Shown here one piece after another: positions 1 to 9,069 of a stretch of 64,000 nt of DNA. Source of the DNA: Escherichia phage bumzen. Where the stretch lies: the sequence record MN850635.1. The stretch is one strand, 5' to 3'. The notes under the pieces were generated by a model, which was given only the letters and a program-made list of their open reading frames with translations, did no database searches and was not told the origin of the DNA. The position numbers and the translations under genes were made by a program. Positions within the stretch are counted from its first letter, which is position 1; each line of letters starts with the position of its first letter.

Positions 1-3387
<3,387 letters not shown>

Positions 3388-3389
3388 TA

Positions 3390-4538
3390 ATGGCAGTAGG
3401 TGAAATTCAAATTAGTGCCTTGCCTCAAGCAGCCTTACCAATTGACCTTAGTGATATCTTCCATCTTAAACAGGGTATCGAGGATAAGAGATGTACTCTT
3501 GAGCAATTACTTGCTCCACACTCAAGCCTAAGAAATAACCCTCATGGTGTTACTAAGACACAAATTGGTTTAGATAACGTTATTAATGCTCTCCAGTTAG
3601 TCGCTGCAAATAACTTATCAGATATTGTTAATGTAGCTGAGGCAAGAGCAAATCTACAGATTATGTCTTCAGAAGAGGTTAATAGCCTTATTCAACAGCA
3701 TATTAATGACAAGAGCAACCCACACAATACAACTAAGGCGCAGGTTGGTTTAAGTAATGTCCAGAACTGGGTGACATCTAACCTTTATAATGAGGATGCA
3801 GATAAGTATGCTACAGCAAGAGCAGTAAATAACTTGTACAAGGCTGTTCAGGCTTCTTATCCAGTAGGTACTATCCATCTCTCTATGAATCCTGCAAACC
3901 CTTCTACATATTTAATTTGTGGAGGTACTTGGGAGTTAGTTTCAAAAGGAAGAGCACTTGTAGGTTATGATAGAGATTCTAGGCCAGTTGGTTCAACGTT
4001 TGGTTCACAGACTACTGCACTGACGGTTAATAACATCCCTGCACATACCCACTCAGTGTATGTCACTGGTGGTGGTCACACTCATGGTGCAACGGCCTCT
4101 GTCAGTGCTTTTGATTATGGCACTAAAGGGACTACAACGTTTGACTACGGAACCAAGACCGTATCTACTTACGACTATGGCAACAGAACAACAAGTGCCG
4201 CTGGCTTAACACAAACAACATTCATTAACCGTGGCTATGCTGATGGTGGCTGGAGAGGTTTATCGGTTGAGGGGGCAAGCTATGACCCAAGAGCTACGTT
4301 GACAACAGCTAACAACCACACTCACTCTGTAGCAATTGGTGCGCATAATCACACAGTGGGGATTGGTGCTCACAGCCATTCTGTTGCAATTGGTTCCCAC
4401 AACCACTCAGCAACAGTAACAGTAACCGGAGCAGGTGAGCATTCGCACTCTGGCACAACTGGCACAACTGGTTCTGGTCAAGCATTTAGCGTTGAGCAGC
4501 CATCCTTCGTATTGTATGTATGGCAGAGAACAGCTTAA
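3390..4538 (+). CDS. tail fiber protein (short paralog) with His-x-His repeat tip
   Basis: 382 aa; repeats HTHSV/GAHNHTVGIGAHSHSVAIGSHNHS and SFDYGTK; C-terminus (GSGQAFSVEQPSF..W.RTA) shared with next gene. Confidence 0.7.
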   Translation: MAVGEIQISALPQAALPIDLSDIFHLKQGIEDKRCTLEQLLAPHSSLRNNPHGVTKTQIGLDNVINALQLVAANNLSDIVNVAEARANLQIMSSEEVNSLIQQHINDKSNPHNTTKAQVGLSNVQNWVTSNLYNEDADKYATARAVNNLYKAVQASYPVGTIHLSMNPANPSTYLICGGTWELVSKGRALVGYDRDSRPVGSTFGSQTTALTVNNIPAHTHSVYVTGGGHTHGATASVSAFDYGTKGTTTFDYGTKTVSTYDYGNRTTSAAGLTQTTFINRGYADGGWRGLSVEGASYDPRATLTTANNHTHSVAIGAHNHTVGIGAHSHSVAIGSHNHSATVTVTGAGEHSHSGTTGTTGSGQAFSVEQPSFVLYVWQRTA

Positions 4539-4584
4539 TTTCTTTACAGGGGCTGTATAGCCCCTTTTAAGAGGAAAATTTATA

Positions 4585-6939
4585 ATGGCAGATTACAAGT
4601 TGAGTGAATTAAACTCAATTGATACAATTCGTTCAGACGACCTCCTTCATATCAGGGTTAAAAAGAGACCTGAAATGCTGGGTGATGAAGACCGTCGAAT
4701 GACCTATCAAGACTTCTTAGCGTCTTTTAAACTAGAAAGATTTGTCCAGATTGCTGGTAGCACTATGACGGGTGACTTAGGAATTGTCAAGTTACTTTAT
4801 GGTGGTAAGGCAGTATTTGACCCTACAGGTTCTTCTGAGATTACTATGGGGGATGTTTTAAAGGCTTTTAAAATCAATGCAAATGGTCTTAAACTAACTA
4901 TTGCAGATGCTTCAAGGTCTGCAACTGTTTATCATACTCTTAATAAGCCAAGTCCTAATGAACTTGGGATGAGAACTAATGAAGAGAATGATGCAAGATA
5001 CTCAAGATTGGCTGCAAATAACACCTTTAGAGGTACTCAAAATATTCTATCTGATAATGAAACTATTATTGTTAAGAATATTACACAAGGAATGCCGCTG
5101 TATATTCGCGGTCAAGATGCAGATGGTACTAACAGGTGGTATCTAGGTAATGATAACAAAGGTACAGACAATCTTGTTTTAAAAAATGTTAAATCTGGTG
5201 CATATGTAGCTATTTTGGGTAGCTTAATCACTGTGAACAAATCTATCCAGATTACTGGTCAAGTTCAACCTTCTGATTGGTCTAACTTAGATACTAGATA
5301 CTTTACTCAGACAGCAGCTAATCAGAGATTTGCACAGCTAGTTGGTAATAACACCTTCAGGGGTATTAACAATTTTGTAGGAGAGTTCAATATCACCAGA
5401 GATAACGCTGTGCTAGTCGTTAAGAATGCCACTGCTGCAACTGGACTGTACTTGCTGGGGCAGAAGGCTGATGGGACAAACAAGTTCTACTTAGGGACTG
5501 ATGACTCTGATTCTGTAGTTAATCTACATAACTACATCACAAGCACAACCATCTCTTTGTCAAATGTGATTACCACTACTAAGACTGTGAAAATCACTGG
5601 ACAAGTTCAACCTTCAGATTGGACTAACATTGACTCTAGATACATCTCAGCAGGAACTTTGAGTAATCTTGCTAAGTTAAGTGATGTAAACACTTTTAGG
5701 ATTGCACAGATTATTAATCAGAATGGTTCATTGTTACAGCTAAAGAATACTACACAAGACAAAGAGCTATACTTTGCTGGTCATAATGCTGATGGTGTTA
5801 GAAGGTGGTACATTGGGAATGGGGAACCATCCAACCCAGAAAGATTTATTATCCATAACGACAGAACTGCAACTACGATTTATATGCAAGATGATTTCTT
5901 GCTGAATAAAACTGTTAAAATTACTGGTCAAGTTCAACCATCTGATTGGTCTAACTTAGATGCTAGATACTTCACTCAGGCAGCAGCTAATCAGAGATTT
6001 ATGTATGCAGGTTCTACAGGAGAAGCTACAGAGCAGAATGCAGATGGTGTGGCATGGAACGCTAAAACAGGCTTATATAATGTAACCTCAACAAATGCTG
6101 ATTACACAGCACTTGTGTTTCAAATGTATCAGGGGGTGACCTCTTCTACTGCCTGTGCGCAATTAAAGTTCCAGTATAAAAACGGTGGAATGTGGTACAG
6201 AACATCTGTAGCTAGTAAAGGTTTTGAAGCTAAGTGGTCTAAGGTTTACACAGAGGCTCAGAAACCAACCCCTTCAGAGCTTGGTGCATACACTAAAGCA
6301 GAAACTGACCAGAAGATTGCACAGGCAGTAAGTGACTCTACAGACCTTAATAAAATCTACCCAGTAGGTATTGTAACGTGGTTTAACAGTAATGTTAACC
6401 CTAATACAGCACTGCCTGGTCTAACTTGGACGTACCTTAACAATGGTGTTGGTAGAACTATCAGAATTGCAGCAGCAAACGGTTCAGATGTTGCTACAAC
6501 AGGTGGTTCAGACTCTGTGACGTTAGCTGTTGGTAACTTACCATCACACACTCACAGTTTTTCTGCTACCACTTCATCTTTTGACTACGGAACAAAAAAC
6601 ACTAACACGACTGGTGCTCACGCTCACTCTGTAAGTGGCTCTACTTCATCTGCTGGTAACCACAACCATTCCATTTCGTGGATTGGTCAGAACTCTAAAC
6701 ACTACTCTGGTGGTGGTGGTGGTAGTATTGGTGTAGGACCGGGTTACACCGATGCTAACGGTGCTCACACCCACTCTGTAAGTGGTACTGCCGCTTCTGC
6801 TGGTAACCATGCTCACAGTGTAGGTATCGGTGCTCACACCCATACAGTTAGTGGTAACACTGGTGGTACAGGTTCTGGTTCAGCATTTAGTGTTACTAAC
6901 CAGTTCTACAAGTTAATGGCTTGGGTAAGAACTGCTTAA
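4585..6939 (+). CDS. tail fiber protein (long paralog) with internal tandem repeats and His-x-His tip
   Basis: 784 aa; three ~110 aa repeats each ending [15 protein letters not shown]; C-terminal GAH.HSV repeats and shared C-terminal motif. Confidence 0.75.
4987..5980 (+). repeat. three in-frame tandem ~330 bp repeats inside long tail fiber gene
   Basis: Near-identical DNA segments at ~5255, ~5593 and ~5923 (attactggtcaagttcaacc.tc.gattgg.ctaac). Confidence 0.7.
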
Positions 6940-7018
6940 TCCCTTGTTGACTGATTGTTAAGATGGTGTTAATATTCTTTATGGGTATTCTCACCATCTT
7001 GGCTGATGAGGTGATTAA

Positions 7019-7213
7019 ATGCCTACAATCCTAGCAATTCTTCTAAAAAATCTAGGTAGCTTCTTCTGGAAACTCATTTTATCCCTTCTAAGTGAATACA
7101 TGATTGAGAAAGTGTTCTTTAAGCTTGCAAGATACCTTGCGAGTAAAACAGACACACCTATTGATGATGAGTTCGTAGATAACTTAGAAAAAGCTTTTAA
7201 GGGGGAGAAATAA
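7019..7213 (+). CDS. small membrane protein (holin candidate)
   Basis: 64 aa, hydrophobic N-terminal segment, charged C-terminus; follows fiber genes. Confidence 0.3.
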   Translation: MPTILAILLKNLGSFFWKLILSLLSEYMIEKVFFKLARYLASKTDTPIDDEFVDNLEKAFKGEK

Positions 7214-7585
7214 ATGAAGTGGCTAGAGGAAGCTTTTAAAAATAATATTGGTGCAATTGTAGTTGGTATTTTTAGTGTTATTGGGATGTATACCACGATG
7301 CAAGTCTCAAGTGGTAAGCAAGAAGTATCTGTCACAACAAAGTTACAGCAGCTAGATAATTATTCCAAAAGTAACTATTCAGCTATTCGTGATTTACAGT
7401 CTGACATGAGACTGATTCAGCTAGGGATGGAGAACCAGAAAGTTCAGTTAGAGAATGTTAAGGGTGAAAACGCAAAACTTACCAAAACTCTTGATAAATT
7501 CTCTGACAGTGTGAACAATCTGGCTCAATCAGTATCAGCCTTGCAAGCTATTACTGAAAAGAACACAAAGAATACTGAAAAATAA
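7214..7585 (+). CDS. membrane-anchored coiled-coil protein
   Basis: 123 aa; N-terminal TM segment (IGAIVVGIFSVIGMY) then heptad-rich region. Confidence 0.35.
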   Translation: MKWLEEAFKNNIGAIVVGIFSVIGMYTTMQVSSGKQEVSVTTKLQQLDNYSKSNYSAIRDLQSDMRLIQLGMENQKVQLENVKGENAKLTKTLDKFSDSVNNLAQSVSALQAITEKNTKNTEK

Positions 7586-7590
7586 AATTT

Positions 7591-7620
7591 AAGGCTCCCG
7601 TAAAAAGGAGCCTTTTTTGT
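7591..7620. terminator. bidirectional rho-independent terminator between convergent blocks
   Basis: aaggctcc-cgtaaaa-ggagcctt followed by tttttt; A/T runs on both sides. Confidence 0.7.
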
Positions 7621-7622
7621 TT

Positions 7623-8522
7623 TTACTTACCTACTGACAGAGGTGCTTCAATCTTCCCTGCATGTTGGTAGTTGTTAATACCACCAATAAAATCACTTGC
7701 AGTAAGATGTTTCAGGTCACTCAGGGTGTTAAGCTGTACACCAATCTCAAAAGTAGGTGCATGGAACTCTTCATTGTTCATCAGTTTATAAACCTGCTTC
7801 ATATGGTTCTGATAAATCTGGGTATCCCCAAAGACACCTATCAAGTACCGTGGAGTGTATCCAGTCATCTTGCAAAGAACTTCTAAGATGAAGCCATAAG
7901 ACGCAATGTTAAATGGAAGCCCTAAAAAGGTGTCTACAGAACGTTGATACCATTGCAAGTCAACTTCACCTTCGTTAGTGATATAAATCTGAAACAGGAC
8001 ATGACAAGGTGCTAAAGCCATTGAGTTTGCTGCGATATCTGCTGCATTCCAAGCATTAACAAGCATGTATCGGTCTGTGATATCACCCTTCATCTTCGTT
8101 ACTAAGGTCTCTAGCTGGTCTACAACACAACCGTTATAACCTTCAAAGTTTCTCCACTGAACTCCATAGATTCTCCCACCTGCATCCTCTAACCAATCTT
8201 GTTCAGAAGAATAATTAGAGCTTAACCAACGTTTAAAATCATCTGACCAGATAGTCCAGCGTTCTCCGTCATTTTCATCCCAAGTACGGTAACGAAGTTC
8301 ACCCAGCTTATTCTCACCATTCAGGAACCATAAAGCCTCCCCAATAACTTGCCGTGTAAACACCTGTTTAGATGTTAAGAGCGGGAAACCAGTCCTCATA
8401 TCAAAACGAAACTGAGGTGGAGCAAAAGCAGAGATAACATCTCCAGTTCGTGTAGTACGCAGTTCACCAACGGATAAAACATGGTTCAGGATATTTTTGT
8501 AACTTGTATCTGCTTGTGACAT
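7623..8522 (-). CDS. thyA: thymidylate synthase
   Basis: 299 aa; motifs CHVLFQIY and QRSVDTFLGLPFNIASY. Confidence 0.9.
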   Translation of the reverse strand: MSQADTSYKNILNHVLSVGELRTTRTGDVISAFAPPQFRFDMRTGFPLLTSKQVFTRQVIGEALWFLNGENKLGELRYRTWDENDGERWTIWSDDFKRWLSSNYSSEQDWLEDAGGRIYGVQWRNFEGYNGCVVDQLETLVTKMKGDITDRYMLVNAWNAADIAANSMALAPCHVLFQIYITNEGEVDLQWYQRSVDTFLGLPFNIASYGFILEVLCKMTGYTPRYLIGVFGDTQIYQNHMKQVYKLMNNEEFHAPTFEIGVQLNTLSDLKHLTASDFIGGINNYQHAGKIEAPLSVGK

Positions 8523-8523
8523 A

Positions 8524-9069
8524 TCAAAAGTGTCCTTTTACTTGTGGAACATAAATTTCAAAAGTTGCTTTACCATCCTCTGATGGTTTTGACTGTACCT
8601 TTGTAAACACACGGTTATCATACAGCTTCTCAAAGAAGTTTTCAAAAGGTAAATGCACAGTGGCCTCTTCAGTAACTTTATGGAAAACAGTATGGAACAC
8701 CACACTAGCATACGGTAAAGCATTGACAAGGATACCTGCACCACCAATTACAAAGACATCTTCATCAATAGAGCTATCAAGATACTTCAAAAATGCTCCA
8801 AATGACTCTTTACTGGCTTTAGCATACATTACATCATCTTTGCCAAAGTCTATGCCTAAGTATGGTACAGAATTTGTTAAGATGAGGTTTGCACGTTCTG
8901 GTAAAGGTTTACTACCCAGAGTCTTAAAAGTCTCATTACCCATGACTACTAAGTTATTTTTAGTGAGCCTCTTAAACTCTTGCATGTCCTGTTTATGTCG
9001 AGGCCACGGCATACCAGTCGGTGTACCAAATTCACCGTTTTCACCACTTGCAAATATTAGCTTAATCAT
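8524..9069 (-). CDS. dihydrofolate reductase
   Basis: 181 aa; N-terminal MIKLIFA..G.PW pattern, VVMGNETF, PLPERANLILT; adjacent to thyA. Confidence 0.75.
   Translation of the reverse strand: MIKLIFASGENGEFGTPTGMPWPRHKQDMQEFKRLTKNNLVVMGNETFKTLGSKPLPERANLILTNSVPYLGIDFGKDDVMYAKASKESFGAFLKYLDSSIDEDVFVIGGAGILVNALPYASVVFHTVFHKVTEEATVHLPFENFFEKLYDNRVFTKVQSKPSEDGKATFEIYVPQVKGHF

What the first reader, a model, noticed from the sequence alone, without database searches (positions are those of the whole stretch)
3390..6939. Two paralogous tail fibers with shared C-terminus and His-x-His repeats; long one has three in-frame 110 aa repeats
Seen: both genes end with G-A-H-x-H-S-V repeats and the same last ~25 residues; the longer gene contains three ~330 bp tandem repeats (4987-5980). 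Established: His-x-His repeats coordinate metal ions in T4 long-tail-fiber tips. Inference: swappable receptor-binding tips on a common scaffold, with repeat number a likely source of length variation.
Basis: partly seen in the sequence, partly recalled or inferred. Interest (0 to 1): 0.4.

Follow-up and report, generated by a model that had tools for sequence, protein, structure and literature searches.

The report
Felixounavirus short and long tail fibres
These two genes are the already-described short and long tail fibres of a Felix O1-like coliphage, both ending in a T4-type histidine-rich receptor-binding needle; the three repeats in the long fibre are old, diverged shaft domains fixed at three copies, and related phages differ by swapping whole domains, not by changing repeat number.

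Summary
ORF 3390-4538 (382 aa) and ORF 4585-6939 (784 aa) share a homologous C-terminal ~200-245 aa with 7 and 6 His-x-His motifs. The long ORF holds three in-frame repeats of 110/114/109 aa (nt 4999-5997).

It is already known. The window is a Felixounavirus: the long protein is 100% identical to Escherichia phage bumzen. The two genes are orthologues of Bas63 gp26 (short fibre, 98.7% identity) and gp27 (long fibre, 74.4%), both placed in the virion by cryo-EM in 2025. VpaE1 homologues were found in virions by mass spectrometry in 2015. Both tips match the T4 gp37 tip (PDB 2XGF).

The repeats are only 56-61% identical in DNA, so assembly collapse and slippage are not an issue. All 120 close homologue clusters have exactly three copies. 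Two distant syntenic contigs have four and five.

What varies is module identity. Each repeat body, a fourth domain (aa 472-560) and the small tip head come in discrete allele classes. These classes recombine independently at conserved linkers, giving 75 haplotypes among 120 sequences. In the long fibre the collar, needle and C-end are the conserved scaffold. I did not find this cassette pattern spelled out in the papers I read. Overall interest is low.

The parts
3085..3387 (+). 100-aa long-fibre platform protein (orthologue of Bas63 gp25), the baseplate attachment point for the long fibre
   Evidence: 97% identical to Bas63 gp25. The paper assigns gp25 as the LTF platform and a T4 gp9 analogue. 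Matches phrog_4141.
3390..4538 (+). Short tail fibre gene (382 aa), orthologue of Bas63 gp26
   Evidence: 98.7% identical to Bas63 gp26 with the same 7 HxH positions. phrog_2097 tail fiber, E 2e-127. Pfam Gp10_C at 65.9 bits against a cut-off of 27. Matches 2XGF at E 3e-14.
3390..3809 (+). Short fibre aa 1-140: N-terminal baseplate-binding part and helical shaft with two NPHxxTKxQ[IV]GL motifs (aa 50 and 110)
   Evidence: Per-20-aa mean identity 0.69-0.85 across 70 homologues; aa 1-60 is 88-100% identical in genus-level homologues. Motifs found. The role is taken from the Bas63 cryo-EM paper.
3810..4043 (+). Short fibre aa 141-218: collar domain (T4 gp10/gp37-collar type)
   Evidence: Pfam Gp10_C covers aa 154-259. 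PDB hits to T4 gp10 (2FKK, 5HX2) at aa 144-227. This is the only stretch of the AF2 monomer model with pLDDT 75-85.
4044..4175 (+). Short fibre aa 219-262: outgoing half of the HxH needle (HxH at 219 and 230; FDYGTK repeats)
   Evidence: aligned to the T4 gp37 needle in 2XGF.
4176..4307 (+). Short fibre aa 263-306: hypervariable head at the distal tip, the probable receptor contact
   Evidence: 2-30% identity in every homologue cluster except its own. DNA blocks are replaced in TH10, UAB_69 and VpaE1. The DNA stretch 4120-4400 that contains it (head plus flanking needle) is found in 34 phage records, all Escherichia/Shigella-named and mostly isolated on K-12-type strains.
4308..4454 (+). Short fibre aa 307-355: returning half of the needle (HxH at 310, 319, 328, 337, 351)
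4455..4535 (+). Short fibre aa 356-382: conserved C-terminal end (TGSGQAFSV...W.RTA), inferred to run back into the collar
   Evidence: 14 of the last 25 residues are identical to the long fibre. The Bas63 paper describes the chain doubling back to the collar. The structural role is inferred.
4548..4565 (+). Conserved 7-bp hairpin followed by UUU, between the two fibre genes and just before the long-fibre ribosome-binding site
   Evidence: Folding energy -12.3 kcal/mol, z -2.0. The stem is identical in 11 of 12 relatives, and in those only the loop varies G/U. It did not meet the terminator scan's T-run rule. Function untested.
4585..6939 (+). Long tail fibre gene (784 aa), orthologue of Bas63 gp27
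   Evidence: 100% identical to the Escherichia phage bumzen 'tail fibers protein'. 74.4% identical to Bas63 gp27 with HxH at the same positions. phrog_4277 matches end to end.
4585..4998 (+). Long fibre aa 1-138: conserved N-terminal baseplate/platform-binding region
   Evidence: Mean 97% identity over 120 homologues, minimum 93%.
4999..5328 (+). Repeat 1 (aa 139-248): variable beta-rich body (aa ~141-220) plus conserved linker [27 protein letters not shown]
   Evidence: Repeat definition; Pfam PF20744. The body falls into 9 allele classes; body identity to the window spans 28-100%. DNA breakpoints at aa 139/150 and 222-223.
5329..5670 (+). Repeat 2 (aa 249-362): body with a 6-aa insertion, plus linker
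   Evidence: 11 allele classes. Breakpoints at aa 250-259 and 332-339. Bodies at this position never cluster with bodies from positions 1 or 3.
5671..5997 (+). Repeat 3 (aa 363-471): body plus a linker 90% identical in DNA to the repeat-1 linker (5234-5331 versus 5903-6000)
   Evidence: 9 allele classes. Breakpoints at aa 352-360 and 445-453. Some body classes occur at both position 1 and position 3.
5998..6264 (+). Fourth shaft domain 'D5' (aa 472-560): gp37_C / Mu fibre S-like domain, the most often replaced module
   Evidence: Pfam PF12604. PDB 8JU3 Mu tail fibre, E 2e-16; Foldseek 8JU3 at E 1.9e-6 on a low-confidence model. 14 allele classes, some with no Pfam match and lengths up to 180 aa.
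6265..6540 (+). Long fibre aa 561-652: helical linker and collar domain
   Evidence: 97% mean identity. Pfam Gp10_C scores 26.3 bits, just under the cut-off of 27. Aligned to the short-fibre collar by hhalign.
6541..6675 (+). Long fibre aa 653-697: outgoing half-needle (HxH at 655, 679, 693)
   Evidence: aligned to 2XGF.
6676..6759 (+). Long fibre aa 698-725: small variable head at the distal tip
   Evidence: 7-96% identity, 6 allele classes. The DNA stretch 6640-6790 that contains it is found in 27 phage records, all Escherichia.
6760..6864 (+). Long fibre aa 726-760: returning half-needle (HxH at 728, 742, 751)
   Evidence: Pfam Phage_fiber covers aa 747-759.
6865..6936 (+). Long fibre aa 761-784: near-invariant C-terminal end ([24 protein letters not shown])
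   Evidence: Mean identity rounds to 100% over 120 homologues, minimum 92%.

Best explanation
The two genes encode the short and long lateral tail fibres of a Felixounavirus (phage bumzen or a near-identical isolate).

How the fibres are built (taken from the published Bas63 cryo-EM work, not shown here): each is a homotrimer anchored to the baseplate by its N-terminus. The short fibre binds wedge protein 2. The long fibre binds the platform protein encoded just upstream at 3085-3387.

Both fibres end in the same kind of receptor-binding tip as T4 gp37. The chain forms a collar, runs out as three strands of a needle lined with His-x-His motifs, forms a small head, and runs back as three more strands. 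Its last ~25 residues return to the collar. That return would account for the shared C-terminal end. By homology to T4, the His pairs coordinate metal ions along the needle axis, and the head contacts the LPS core.

The three 110-aa repeats are ancient duplicated shaft domains: a beta-rich body followed by a conserved, partly helical linker. They set fibre length and are fixed at three copies in this genus.

Diversity arises by homologous recombination at the conserved linkers, not by changing copy number. Recombination exchanges whole modules between related phages: repeat bodies 1, 2 and 3, the aa 472-560 domain, the long-fibre head, and the short-fibre head with its needle.

Shown here: ORFs, homologies, repeat anatomy, conservation profile, block-wise mosaic and independent assortment of modules.
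Inferred: trimer state, metal binding, LPS receptor, and recombination as the mechanism.
For: Identity:
- The long protein is 100% identical to the phage bumzen tail fibre.
- 239 phage records match the region, almost all Felixounavirus.
- The locus is syntenic with Bas63, and identities to gp23, gp24, gp25, gp26 and gp27 are 99.6, 99.3, 97, 98.7 and 74.4%.

Virion location and architecture:
- Bas63 cryo-EM, Sf14 cryo-EM and VpaE1 virion mass spectrometry.

Tip homology:
- 2XGF matches at E 1e-17 and 3e-14; T4 gp10 collar hits; Pfam Gp10_C and Phage_fiber.
- HxH enrichment was never reached in 20,000 shuffles.

Repeats:
- 41-47% amino-acid and 56-61% DNA identity, and no Tandem Repeats Finder hit.
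- Three copies in 120 of 120 homologue clusters.

Modular exchange:
- Per-module identities form discrete classes, e.g. ~95% versus ~30%.
- In DNA, 90-100% blocks abut ~50% blocks. JLBYU32 differs only in body 3, ESCO49 only in body 2, and CL1 and momo only in the aa 472-560 domain.
- HMM breakpoints cluster at the linkers.
- There are 75 five-module haplotypes among 120 sequences, and four-gamete violations between every module pair.
- Body classes are shared between positions 1 and 3, up to 85.5% identity.
- At identical amino acids, the repeat-1 and repeat-3 linkers share 22 of 25 codons against 12 of 22 in the bodies, Fisher p = 0.02.

Receptor:
- LPS core dependence is published for Bas63 and VpaE1.
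- The window's short-fibre tip stretch (head plus flanking needle, nt 4120-4400) and long-fibre head stretch occur in 34 and 27 records, nearly all isolated on K-12-type strains. Its shaft alleles occur in only 8-17 records.
Against: - No trimer model could be made. The AF2 monomer models are poor (mean pLDDT 49.8 and 58.4), so collar, needle and head boundaries rest on sequence alignment to 2XGF and on the Bas63 paper.
- Metal binding and receptor contact are not testable here.
- The homologue sets are the 120 best hits to this window, so allele frequencies are biased toward its own classes.
- Allele classes were defined by single-linkage clustering at 70-75% identity.
- Profile comparison did not detect the N-terminal similarity between the two fibres that the Bas63 paper reports at the structural level.
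- The Bas63 paper counts five beta-helix domains, whereas only three are detectable as sequence repeats. I assume the other two are the N-terminal domain and aa 472-560, but did not show it.
Confidence: 0.85

Rival explanations
1. Repeat-number variation. The three repeats expand and contract by unequal crossing-over or slippage, giving fibres of different length and host range among close relatives.
For: The repeat-1 and repeat-3 linkers are 90% identical over 98 nt and could support unequal crossing-over. Two syntenic Ounavirinae-like contigs carry 5 copies (1015 aa, L013) and 4 copies (L014).
Against: 120 of 120 homologue clusters at 70% identity or more have exactly 3 copies. Lengths of 778-843 aa fit alternative aa 472-560 alleles of 118-180 aa; momo's 843-aa fibre carries the 180-aa allele. 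Copies are only 56-61% identical in DNA and Tandem Repeats Finder reports nothing. The Bas63 paper reports no variable repeat number in 18 species. The 5-copy phage is only ~71% identical in the baseplate genes, so the change is old.
Confidence: 0.07
2. The repeats are an assembly artefact, either a collapse or a spurious duplication.
For: None beyond the general risk with repeats.
Against: Copies are 56-61% identical in DNA, far too diverged to mis-assemble. The same three-unit architecture and gene length are present in over 100 independent genomes and contigs from many laboratories.
Confidence: 0.01
3. The variable shaft modules (repeat bodies and aa 472-560) are themselves glycan-binding sites. 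The long fibre would then be a multivalent adhesin whose specificity is set combinatorially by the cassettes it carries, not only by the tip head.
For: Discrete allele classes ~30% identical to each other are maintained and reshuffled. aa 472-560 is homologous to part of the Mu fibre (8JU3) and weakly resembles the T7 gp17 tip fold, and it can be replaced by unrelated domains. In a Salmonella Felixounavirus, mutations arising during a host challenge mapped to long-fibre aa 497 and 534, which falls in this domain if the numbering corresponds. The Sf14 authors raise receptor contacts proximal to the tip.
Against: Phages isolated on the same K-12 host carry many different cassette combinations while sharing the tip alleles, so the cassettes are not needed to define K-12 recognition. 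The homologous T4 gp34 rod domains are regarded as structural. There are no binding data.
Confidence: 0.3
4. The shaft mosaic has no effect on receptor binding. The modules are structurally interchangeable spacers, and frequent recombination at the conserved linkers shuffles old alleles neutrally, or under a pressure unrelated to adsorption such as docking on the sheath or evading a host factor.
For: Cassette diversity is seen on a single isolation host. The conserved linkers provide recombination sites. [quoted passage not shown]
Against: Neutral shuffling does not by itself explain why allele classes stay as far apart as ~30% identity with few intermediates. It also does not explain why copies within one fibre are never more than 59% identical.
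Confidence: 0.45

Closest known systems
Bas63 (Escherichia phage JohannRWettstein) gp26 short and gp27 long tail fibres; cryo-EM, Sci Adv 2025, PMC12609058
   Same: Same genes in the same locus, with identical lengths (382 and 784 aa). Identities are 98.7% and 74.4%. HxH motifs sit at the same positions, 7 and 6.
   Different: The window's long fibre carries other alleles of repeat body 1, repeat body 2 and the aa 472-560 domain. The paper counts five beta-helix domains, of which only three are sequence repeats.
T4 gp37 receptor-binding tip (PDB 2XGF, Bartual et al. 2010)
   Same: Collar, HxH needle and head architecture. Significant sequence matches at E 1e-17 and 3e-14, with aligned HxH and FDYGTK motifs. 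T4 has 7 HxH motifs, like the short fibre.
   Different: Here the tip sits on single-protein fibres of 382 and 784 aa, rather than on a four-protein, 1026-aa-distal-subunit fibre. The long-fibre needle is shorter, with 6 HxH. No relative of the chaperones that fold T4 gp37 was looked for here.
T4 gp34 proximal rod repeats (PDB 5NXH), as compared in the Bas63 paper
   Same: Beta-helical domains alternating with 'triple alpha-helix and turn' linkers. The AF2 monomer model gives beta-rich bodies and helical linkers.
   Different: I did not find a sequence or fold match to 5NXH with the tools used. The resemblance rests on the paper.
Phage Mu tail fibre S/S' (PDB 8JU3)
   Same: Long-fibre aa 469-578 align to chain residues 320-426 at E 2e-16. 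Foldseek top hit.
   Different: In this fibre the domain lies mid-shaft and is followed by a T4-type tip. Mu switches fibres by DNA inversion and needs a chaperone; neither an invertible segment nor a chaperone was looked for in this window.
T-even gp37/gp38 adhesin mosaicism by recombination at conserved motifs (Tetart et al. 1998; recalled from my own knowledge, not read here)
   Same: Variable segments flanked by short conserved motifs that act as recombination sites, producing chimeric fibres.
   Different: Here the conserved junctions are the inter-repeat linkers (K-T-V[11 protein letters not shown]...R-Y) and the exchanged units are whole shaft domains. The HxH needle itself is conserved.
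VpaE1 gp74/gp75 (Viruses 2015, PMC4690856) and Sf14 gp52/gp53 (Commun Biol 2025, PMC11821841)
   Same: Orthologous fibre pairs. VpaE1's were detected in virions and shown to share T4 gp37 homology, and its paper notes that the middle of gp75 is highly variable. Sf14 has two retracted fibres of 391 and 792 aa.
   Different: VpaE1 differs from the window in the short-fibre tip and in most long-fibre modules. VpaE1 uses truncated B-type LPS core and not K-12-type.

Membership tests
Felixounavirus short tail fibre (Bas63 gp26 orthologue) | Encoded directly after the long-fibre platform gene in the baseplate module | tested here: met
   Gene order wedge 2, wedge 1, platform, short fibre, long fibre is identical to Bas63 and 11 other phages.
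Felixounavirus short tail fibre (Bas63 gp26 orthologue) | Full-length sequence similarity and equal length | tested here: met
   98.7% identity over 382 of 382 aa. phrog_2097 at E 2e-127.
Felixounavirus long tail fibre (Bas63 gp27 orthologue) | Full-length similarity, conserved N-terminus and C-terminal tip, three PF20744 repeats | tested here: met
   74.4% identity over 784 aa. phrog_4277 covers 1-784. PF20744 is called three times.
Felixounavirus tail fibres | Physical presence on the virion baseplate as trimers | not testable with these tools
   Shown for orthologues only, by cryo-EM and mass spectrometry.
T4 gp37-type receptor-binding tip | Collar domain of the gp10/gp12/gp37 type preceding the needle | tested here: met
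   Short fibre: Pfam Gp10_C at 65.9 bits (cut-off 27) and T4 gp10 PDB hits. Long fibre: 26.3 bits, just below the cut-off, but aligned to the short-fibre collar at 99.9% probability.
T4 gp37-type receptor-binding tip | Two runs of His-x-His motifs (outgoing and returning needle strands) separated by a head insert | tested here: met
   Short fibre has 2 + 5 motifs around aa 263-306. Long fibre has 3 + 3 around aa 698-725. Both align to 2XGF.
T4 gp37-type receptor-binding tip | Metal ions (Fe2+ in T4) coordinated by the His pairs on the trimer axis | not testable with these tools
   Inferred from homology only. The monomer models are unusable in this region, with pLDDT below 50.
T4 gp37-type receptor-binding tip | Dependence on dedicated folding chaperones (gp57A, gp38 in T4) | not tested
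   No search for chaperone homologues was made in the window. The Sf14 authors report that both its fibres appear to consist of a single protein and that its genome has no homologues of the Mu fibre chaperones.
Slippage-prone or copy-number-variable tandem repeat locus | High nucleotide identity between adjacent copies | tested here: not met
   56-61% DNA identity between copies, and no Tandem Repeats Finder array.
Slippage-prone or copy-number-variable tandem repeat locus | Copy-number polymorphism among close relatives | tested here: not met
   Three copies in 120 of 120 clusters. 4 and 5 copies occur only in distant contigs, ~70% protein identity in the wedge genes.
Pfam PF20744 (gp37_trimer) repeat | Score above the curated cut-off | tested here: met
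   180.9 bits against a cut-off of 21.7, in three stretches. The profile of the three units finds 144 representatives in 1.84 billion proteins, with 1-16 matched stretches each.

The most novel reading that the evidence does not exclude
The long fibre may be a combinatorial adhesin. Its three repeat bodies and the aa 472-560 domain would be interchangeable glycan-binding cassettes. They come in at least 9, 11, 9 and 14 allele classes, and some can occupy either position 1 or position 3. Recombination at the repeated linkers reshuffles them, so host range on natural, smooth hosts would be set by the cassette combination along the shaft as well as by the tip head. The shuffling is shown here. 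The binding function is not.
Probability: 0.3. Interest if true: 0.5.

Novelty: already known. Interest (0 to 1): 0.2.

Why it matters
As stated, the finding adds nothing new. The two fibres, their T4-like His-x-His tips and the repeated shaft domains are published for orthologues that are 75-99% identical.

The modest added value is a map of the exchangeable units. Conserved linkers bound five modules that assort independently across the genus, while the collar, needle and C-end of the long fibre and the N-termini of both fibres are fixed. That gives natural splice points for engineering Felix O1-type phages, which are used in Salmonella and E. coli diagnostics and biocontrol. It also gives a concrete test of whether shaft domains contribute to LPS or O-antigen recognition.

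Tried and rejected
- Tandem Repeats Finder on 3000-7500 gave no arrays, so the repeats are protein-level only.
- BLASTP of the long protein against itself returned only the self hit. The units had to be cut out and compared pairwise.
- An HMM of the repeat unit found no cryptic fourth copy in the long fibre and none in the short one.
- The AF2 monomer models of both fibres were poor (pLDDT 49.8 and 58.4), as expected for intertwined trimers.
- Foldseek against the PDB therefore gave only the Mu fibre and a weak T7 gp17 match; the rest was noise.
- The PDB sequence search found no Bas63 or Sf14 fibre chains. For Bas63 the paper says the fibre density was unsuitable for modelling rotamers.
- Profile-profile comparison detected only the C-terminal homology, not the N-terminal baseplate-binding similarity reported structurally.
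- Alternative aa 472-560 alleles had no Pfam match, and the one queried against the PDB sequences (the 180-aa momo type) had no meaningful hit.
- A viral-contig scan for the 5-repeat protein found nothing. The exact-sequence look-up did find its contig.
- The promoter and terminator consensus scan was no better than shuffles and missed the intergenic hairpin.
- Literature searches for an explicit description of cassette shuffling in Felixounavirus fibres found only general statements of variability. This is absence in the held library, not proof of novelty.
- The PhageMaP Bas63 paper has no fibre-specific statement.

Full report
**What is in the sequence**

ORF 3390-4538 (382 aa) and ORF 4585-6939 (784 aa) lie head to tail on the + strand. 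They follow baseplate genes and precede a small ORF, a holin-like ORF, and convergent thyA and DHFR genes.

- The short protein has 7 His-x-His motifs and the long one has 6, mostly as (I)GAHxH(S/T)V. Shuffling each protein 20,000 times never reached those counts; the means were 0.99 and 0.39.
- The two proteins are homologous over their C-terminal parts. BLASTP gives 35% identity at E 7e-28. Profile-profile comparison aligns short aa 155-382 with long aa 590-784 at E 5.6e-33.
- The last 25 residues are similar rather than the same: 14 of 25 are identical.
- The long protein has three in-frame repeats, aa 139-248, 249-362 and 363-471 (nt 4999-5997). They are 41-47% identical in protein and 56-61% in DNA.
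- Tandem Repeats Finder reports nothing. Only a 67-98 nt core at the end of each unit is 75-90% identical.

The repeats are diverged protein domains, not DNA tandem repeats, and assembly collapse is not a concern.

**What it is**

- The region matches 239 phage records at megablast level, essentially all Felixounavirus. The long protein is 100% identical to the 'tail fibers protein' of Escherichia phage bumzen.
- The locus is collinear with phage Bas63 (JohannRWettstein) genes 23-29. Protein identities to gp23, gp24, gp25, gp26 and gp27 are 99.6, 99.3, 97, 98.7 and 74.4%.
- The 2025 Bas63 cryo-EM paper assigns gp26 as a 430-Å short tail fibre bound to wedge 2. It assigns gp27 as a 630-Å long tail fibre bound to the gp25 platform.
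[quoted passage not shown] It counts 7 HxH in the short fibre and 6 in the long one, at the positions found here.
- Sf14 shows the same pair of retracted fibres. VpaE1 gp74 and gp75 were detected in virions by mass spectrometry and noted to share T4 gp37 homology in 2015.

My own tests agree.

- Both proteins hit the T4 gp37 tip (2XGF) at E 1e-17 and 3e-14. The short one also hits the T4 gp10 collar.
- Pfam gives Gp10_C for both: above the cut-off for the short fibre and 0.7 bits below it for the long one. For the long fibre it also gives Phage_fiber, PF20744 three times, and gp37_C.
- Long-fibre aa 469-578 match the Mu tail fibre 8JU3 at E 2e-16.

**Repeat number**

- An HMM of the unit finds exactly three copies in all 120 best homologue clusters (70-100% identity, 778-843 aa).
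- The Bas63 authors likewise report no variable repeat number in 18 species.
- A profile search of 1.84 billion representatives found long-fibre-like proteins with five copies (1015 aa) and four copies (901 aa as called).
- Both are encoded in fully syntenic Ounavirinae-like loci on 77-kb and 87-kb contigs. The five-copy phage is only ~70% identical to the window in the wedge proteins.

Copy number has therefore changed in the history of the subfamily, but it is not a source of variation among close relatives.

**What does vary**

- Across 120 long-fibre homologues the N-terminal 138 aa, the collar and the last 24 aa are 97-100% conserved.
- The three repeat bodies, aa 472-560 and the head at ~aa 698-725 average 51-64% identity.
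- The variation is discrete. A module is either ~85-100% identical to the window or ~10-50%.
- In DNA, blocks of 90-100% identity abut blocks of ~50%:
  - JLBYU32 differs from the window only in body 3.
  - ESCO49 differs only in body 2.
  - CL1 and momo differ only in aa 472-560.
  - skuden differs in body 1 plus aa 472-560.
  - Bas63 differs in bodies 1 and 2 plus aa 472-560.
- A two-state HMM places the block edges at the conserved linkers (...[14 protein letters not shown]...R-Y... and N-T-F-R-G). The edges fall at aa 139/150-222, 250/259-332/339, 352/360-445/453 and 458/463-550/560.
- Clustering gives 9, 11, 9, 14 and 6 allele classes for the five modules. There are 75 distinct haplotypes among 120 sequences, and four-gamete violations between every pair of modules.
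- Some body classes occur at both position 1 and position 3: 101 cross-position pairs at 70% identity or more, with a maximum of 85.5%. None involve position 2. Copies within one protein are never more than 59% identical.
- The repeat-1 and repeat-3 linkers in the window are 90% identical over 98 nt. At identical amino acids they share 22 of 25 codons, against 12 of 22 in the bodies, p = 0.02. This fits exchange between those two junctions.
- Several aa 472-560 alleles are not recognisable as gp37_C at all, and one is 180 aa long. This fits the 842-843-aa fibres: momo's 843-aa protein carries that allele.

In the short fibre the pattern is the classical one. The N-terminus is 88-100% conserved within the genus, and the head at aa 263-306 is 2-30% identical in every other cluster.

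**Function and host**

- Published work points to the LPS core, not a protein, as the receptor. Bas63 depends entirely on an intact K-12 LPS core. VpaE1 adsorbs to a periodate-sensitive, proteinase-insensitive receptor on truncated core.
- In the phage collection the window's short-fibre tip stretch (nt 4120-4400, head plus flanking needle) occurs in 34 records and its long-fibre head stretch in 27. All are Escherichia or Shigella-named and most were isolated on K-12-type strains.
- The window's body-1, body-2, body-3 and aa 472-560 alleles occur in only 8, 8, 17 and 15 records.
- So the tip alleles track the isolation host, while the shaft cassettes are polymorphic among phages of the same host. 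This favours the heads as the primary specificity determinants and leaves the role of the shaft cassettes open.
- One hint that the middle domain matters: a Salmonella Felixounavirus acquired long-fibre changes at aa 497 and 534 during a host challenge. The Sf14 authors also speculate on receptor contacts proximal to the tip.

- Correct: the identification as tail fibres, the T4 analogy and the virion-component assumption.
- Correct in part: 'swappable tips on a common scaffold' holds for the short fibre and for the small long-fibre head. It misses that the long-fibre collar, needle and C-end are the scaffold, and that the shaft domains are the main exchanged units.
- Not supported at the level of related phages: repeat number as a source of variation.

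**Limits**

- No trimer prediction was possible. The monomer models were poor, and the fold search on them was mostly uninformative.
- Metal binding, receptor contact and the recombination mechanism are inferences.
- The homologue sets are biased toward the window's own alleles.
- I did not find the cassette-assortment pattern described in the papers I could search. Those papers do note that the middle of the long fibre and its beta-helix domains are highly variable. This is an incremental refinement, not a discovery.

Noticed in passing
window 4548-4565 (intergenic region 4539-4584): A 7-bp GC-rich hairpin (AGGGGCU GUAU AGCCCCU) followed by UUU sits between the short-fibre stop codon and the long-fibre ribosome-binding site. 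Folding energy is -12.3 kcal/mol, z -2.0. The stem is identical in 11 of 12 relatives, where only the loop varies. It may be an attenuator or stability element setting the ratio of the two fibres. The Bas63 paper notes low long-fibre occupancy.
   Followed up: partly
window 2-337 (HTH codons at 275-283): The window starts inside the homologue of Bas63 gp21, a 207-aa 'baseplate protein'. Window residues correspond to aa 97-207 at 99% identity. Its C-terminus carries EHTHH (aa 187-191 in Bas63 gp21). This may be the metal-binding His site of the central tail needle, as described for Sf14 gp47 (His194/His196). That would make a third His-x-His metal-site protein in this tail module.
   Followed up: partly
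window 7019-7213 and 7214-7585: A 64-aa ORF (phrog_402; the corresponding ORFs in the two distant syntenic contigs L013/L014 hit Pfam PF26925 Phage_PM2_Gpl) is followed by a 123-aa ORF that most of the annotated relatives label holin. One record labels the small ORF 'L-fuculose phosphate aldolase', which looks like a mis-annotation.
   Followed up: no
window 7591-7614: A bidirectional terminator-like hairpin with T-runs on both strands lies between the holin-like gene and the convergent thymidylate synthase (7623-8522, - strand) and dihydrofolate reductase (8524-9069, - strand) genes.
   Followed up: no
L013 8001-11048 and L014 6001-8706: Two syntenic Ounavirinae-like contigs from public sequencing data (Logan SRR22802239, 77 kb; ENA ERZ28599557, 87 kb) encode long fibres with five and four repeats. 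Neither has a close match in the deposited phage collection; the best is ~49% protein identity. In L014 the gene call probably starts at an internal Met, leaving a 153-nt gap upstream.
   Followed up: partly
window 3537-3572 and 3717-3752 (short fibre aa 50-61 and 110-121): The motif NPH(G/N)xTK(T/A)Q(I/V)GL occurs twice. It probably corresponds to the 'triple alpha-helix and turn' elements described for the Bas63 short fibre. By eye, a related KP(S/T)P(N/S)ELG(M/A)x(T) motif ends both the N-terminal domain (aa ~121-131) and the aa 472-560 domain (aa ~560-570) of the long fibre.
   Followed up: no
window 3000-7000 versus the 'phages' collection: No record in the phage collection was more than ~97% identical across the region, although the protein database holds a 100% identical long fibre from phage bumzen. 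The window's own genome record seems to be absent from that collection.
   Followed up: no
window 5234-5331 versus 5903-6000: The linkers after repeats 1 and 3 share synonymous codons far more than the repeat bodies do: 22 of 25 against 12 of 22 at identical residues, Fisher p = 0.02. This suggests intragenic gene conversion or exchange between these two junctions.
   Followed up: partly
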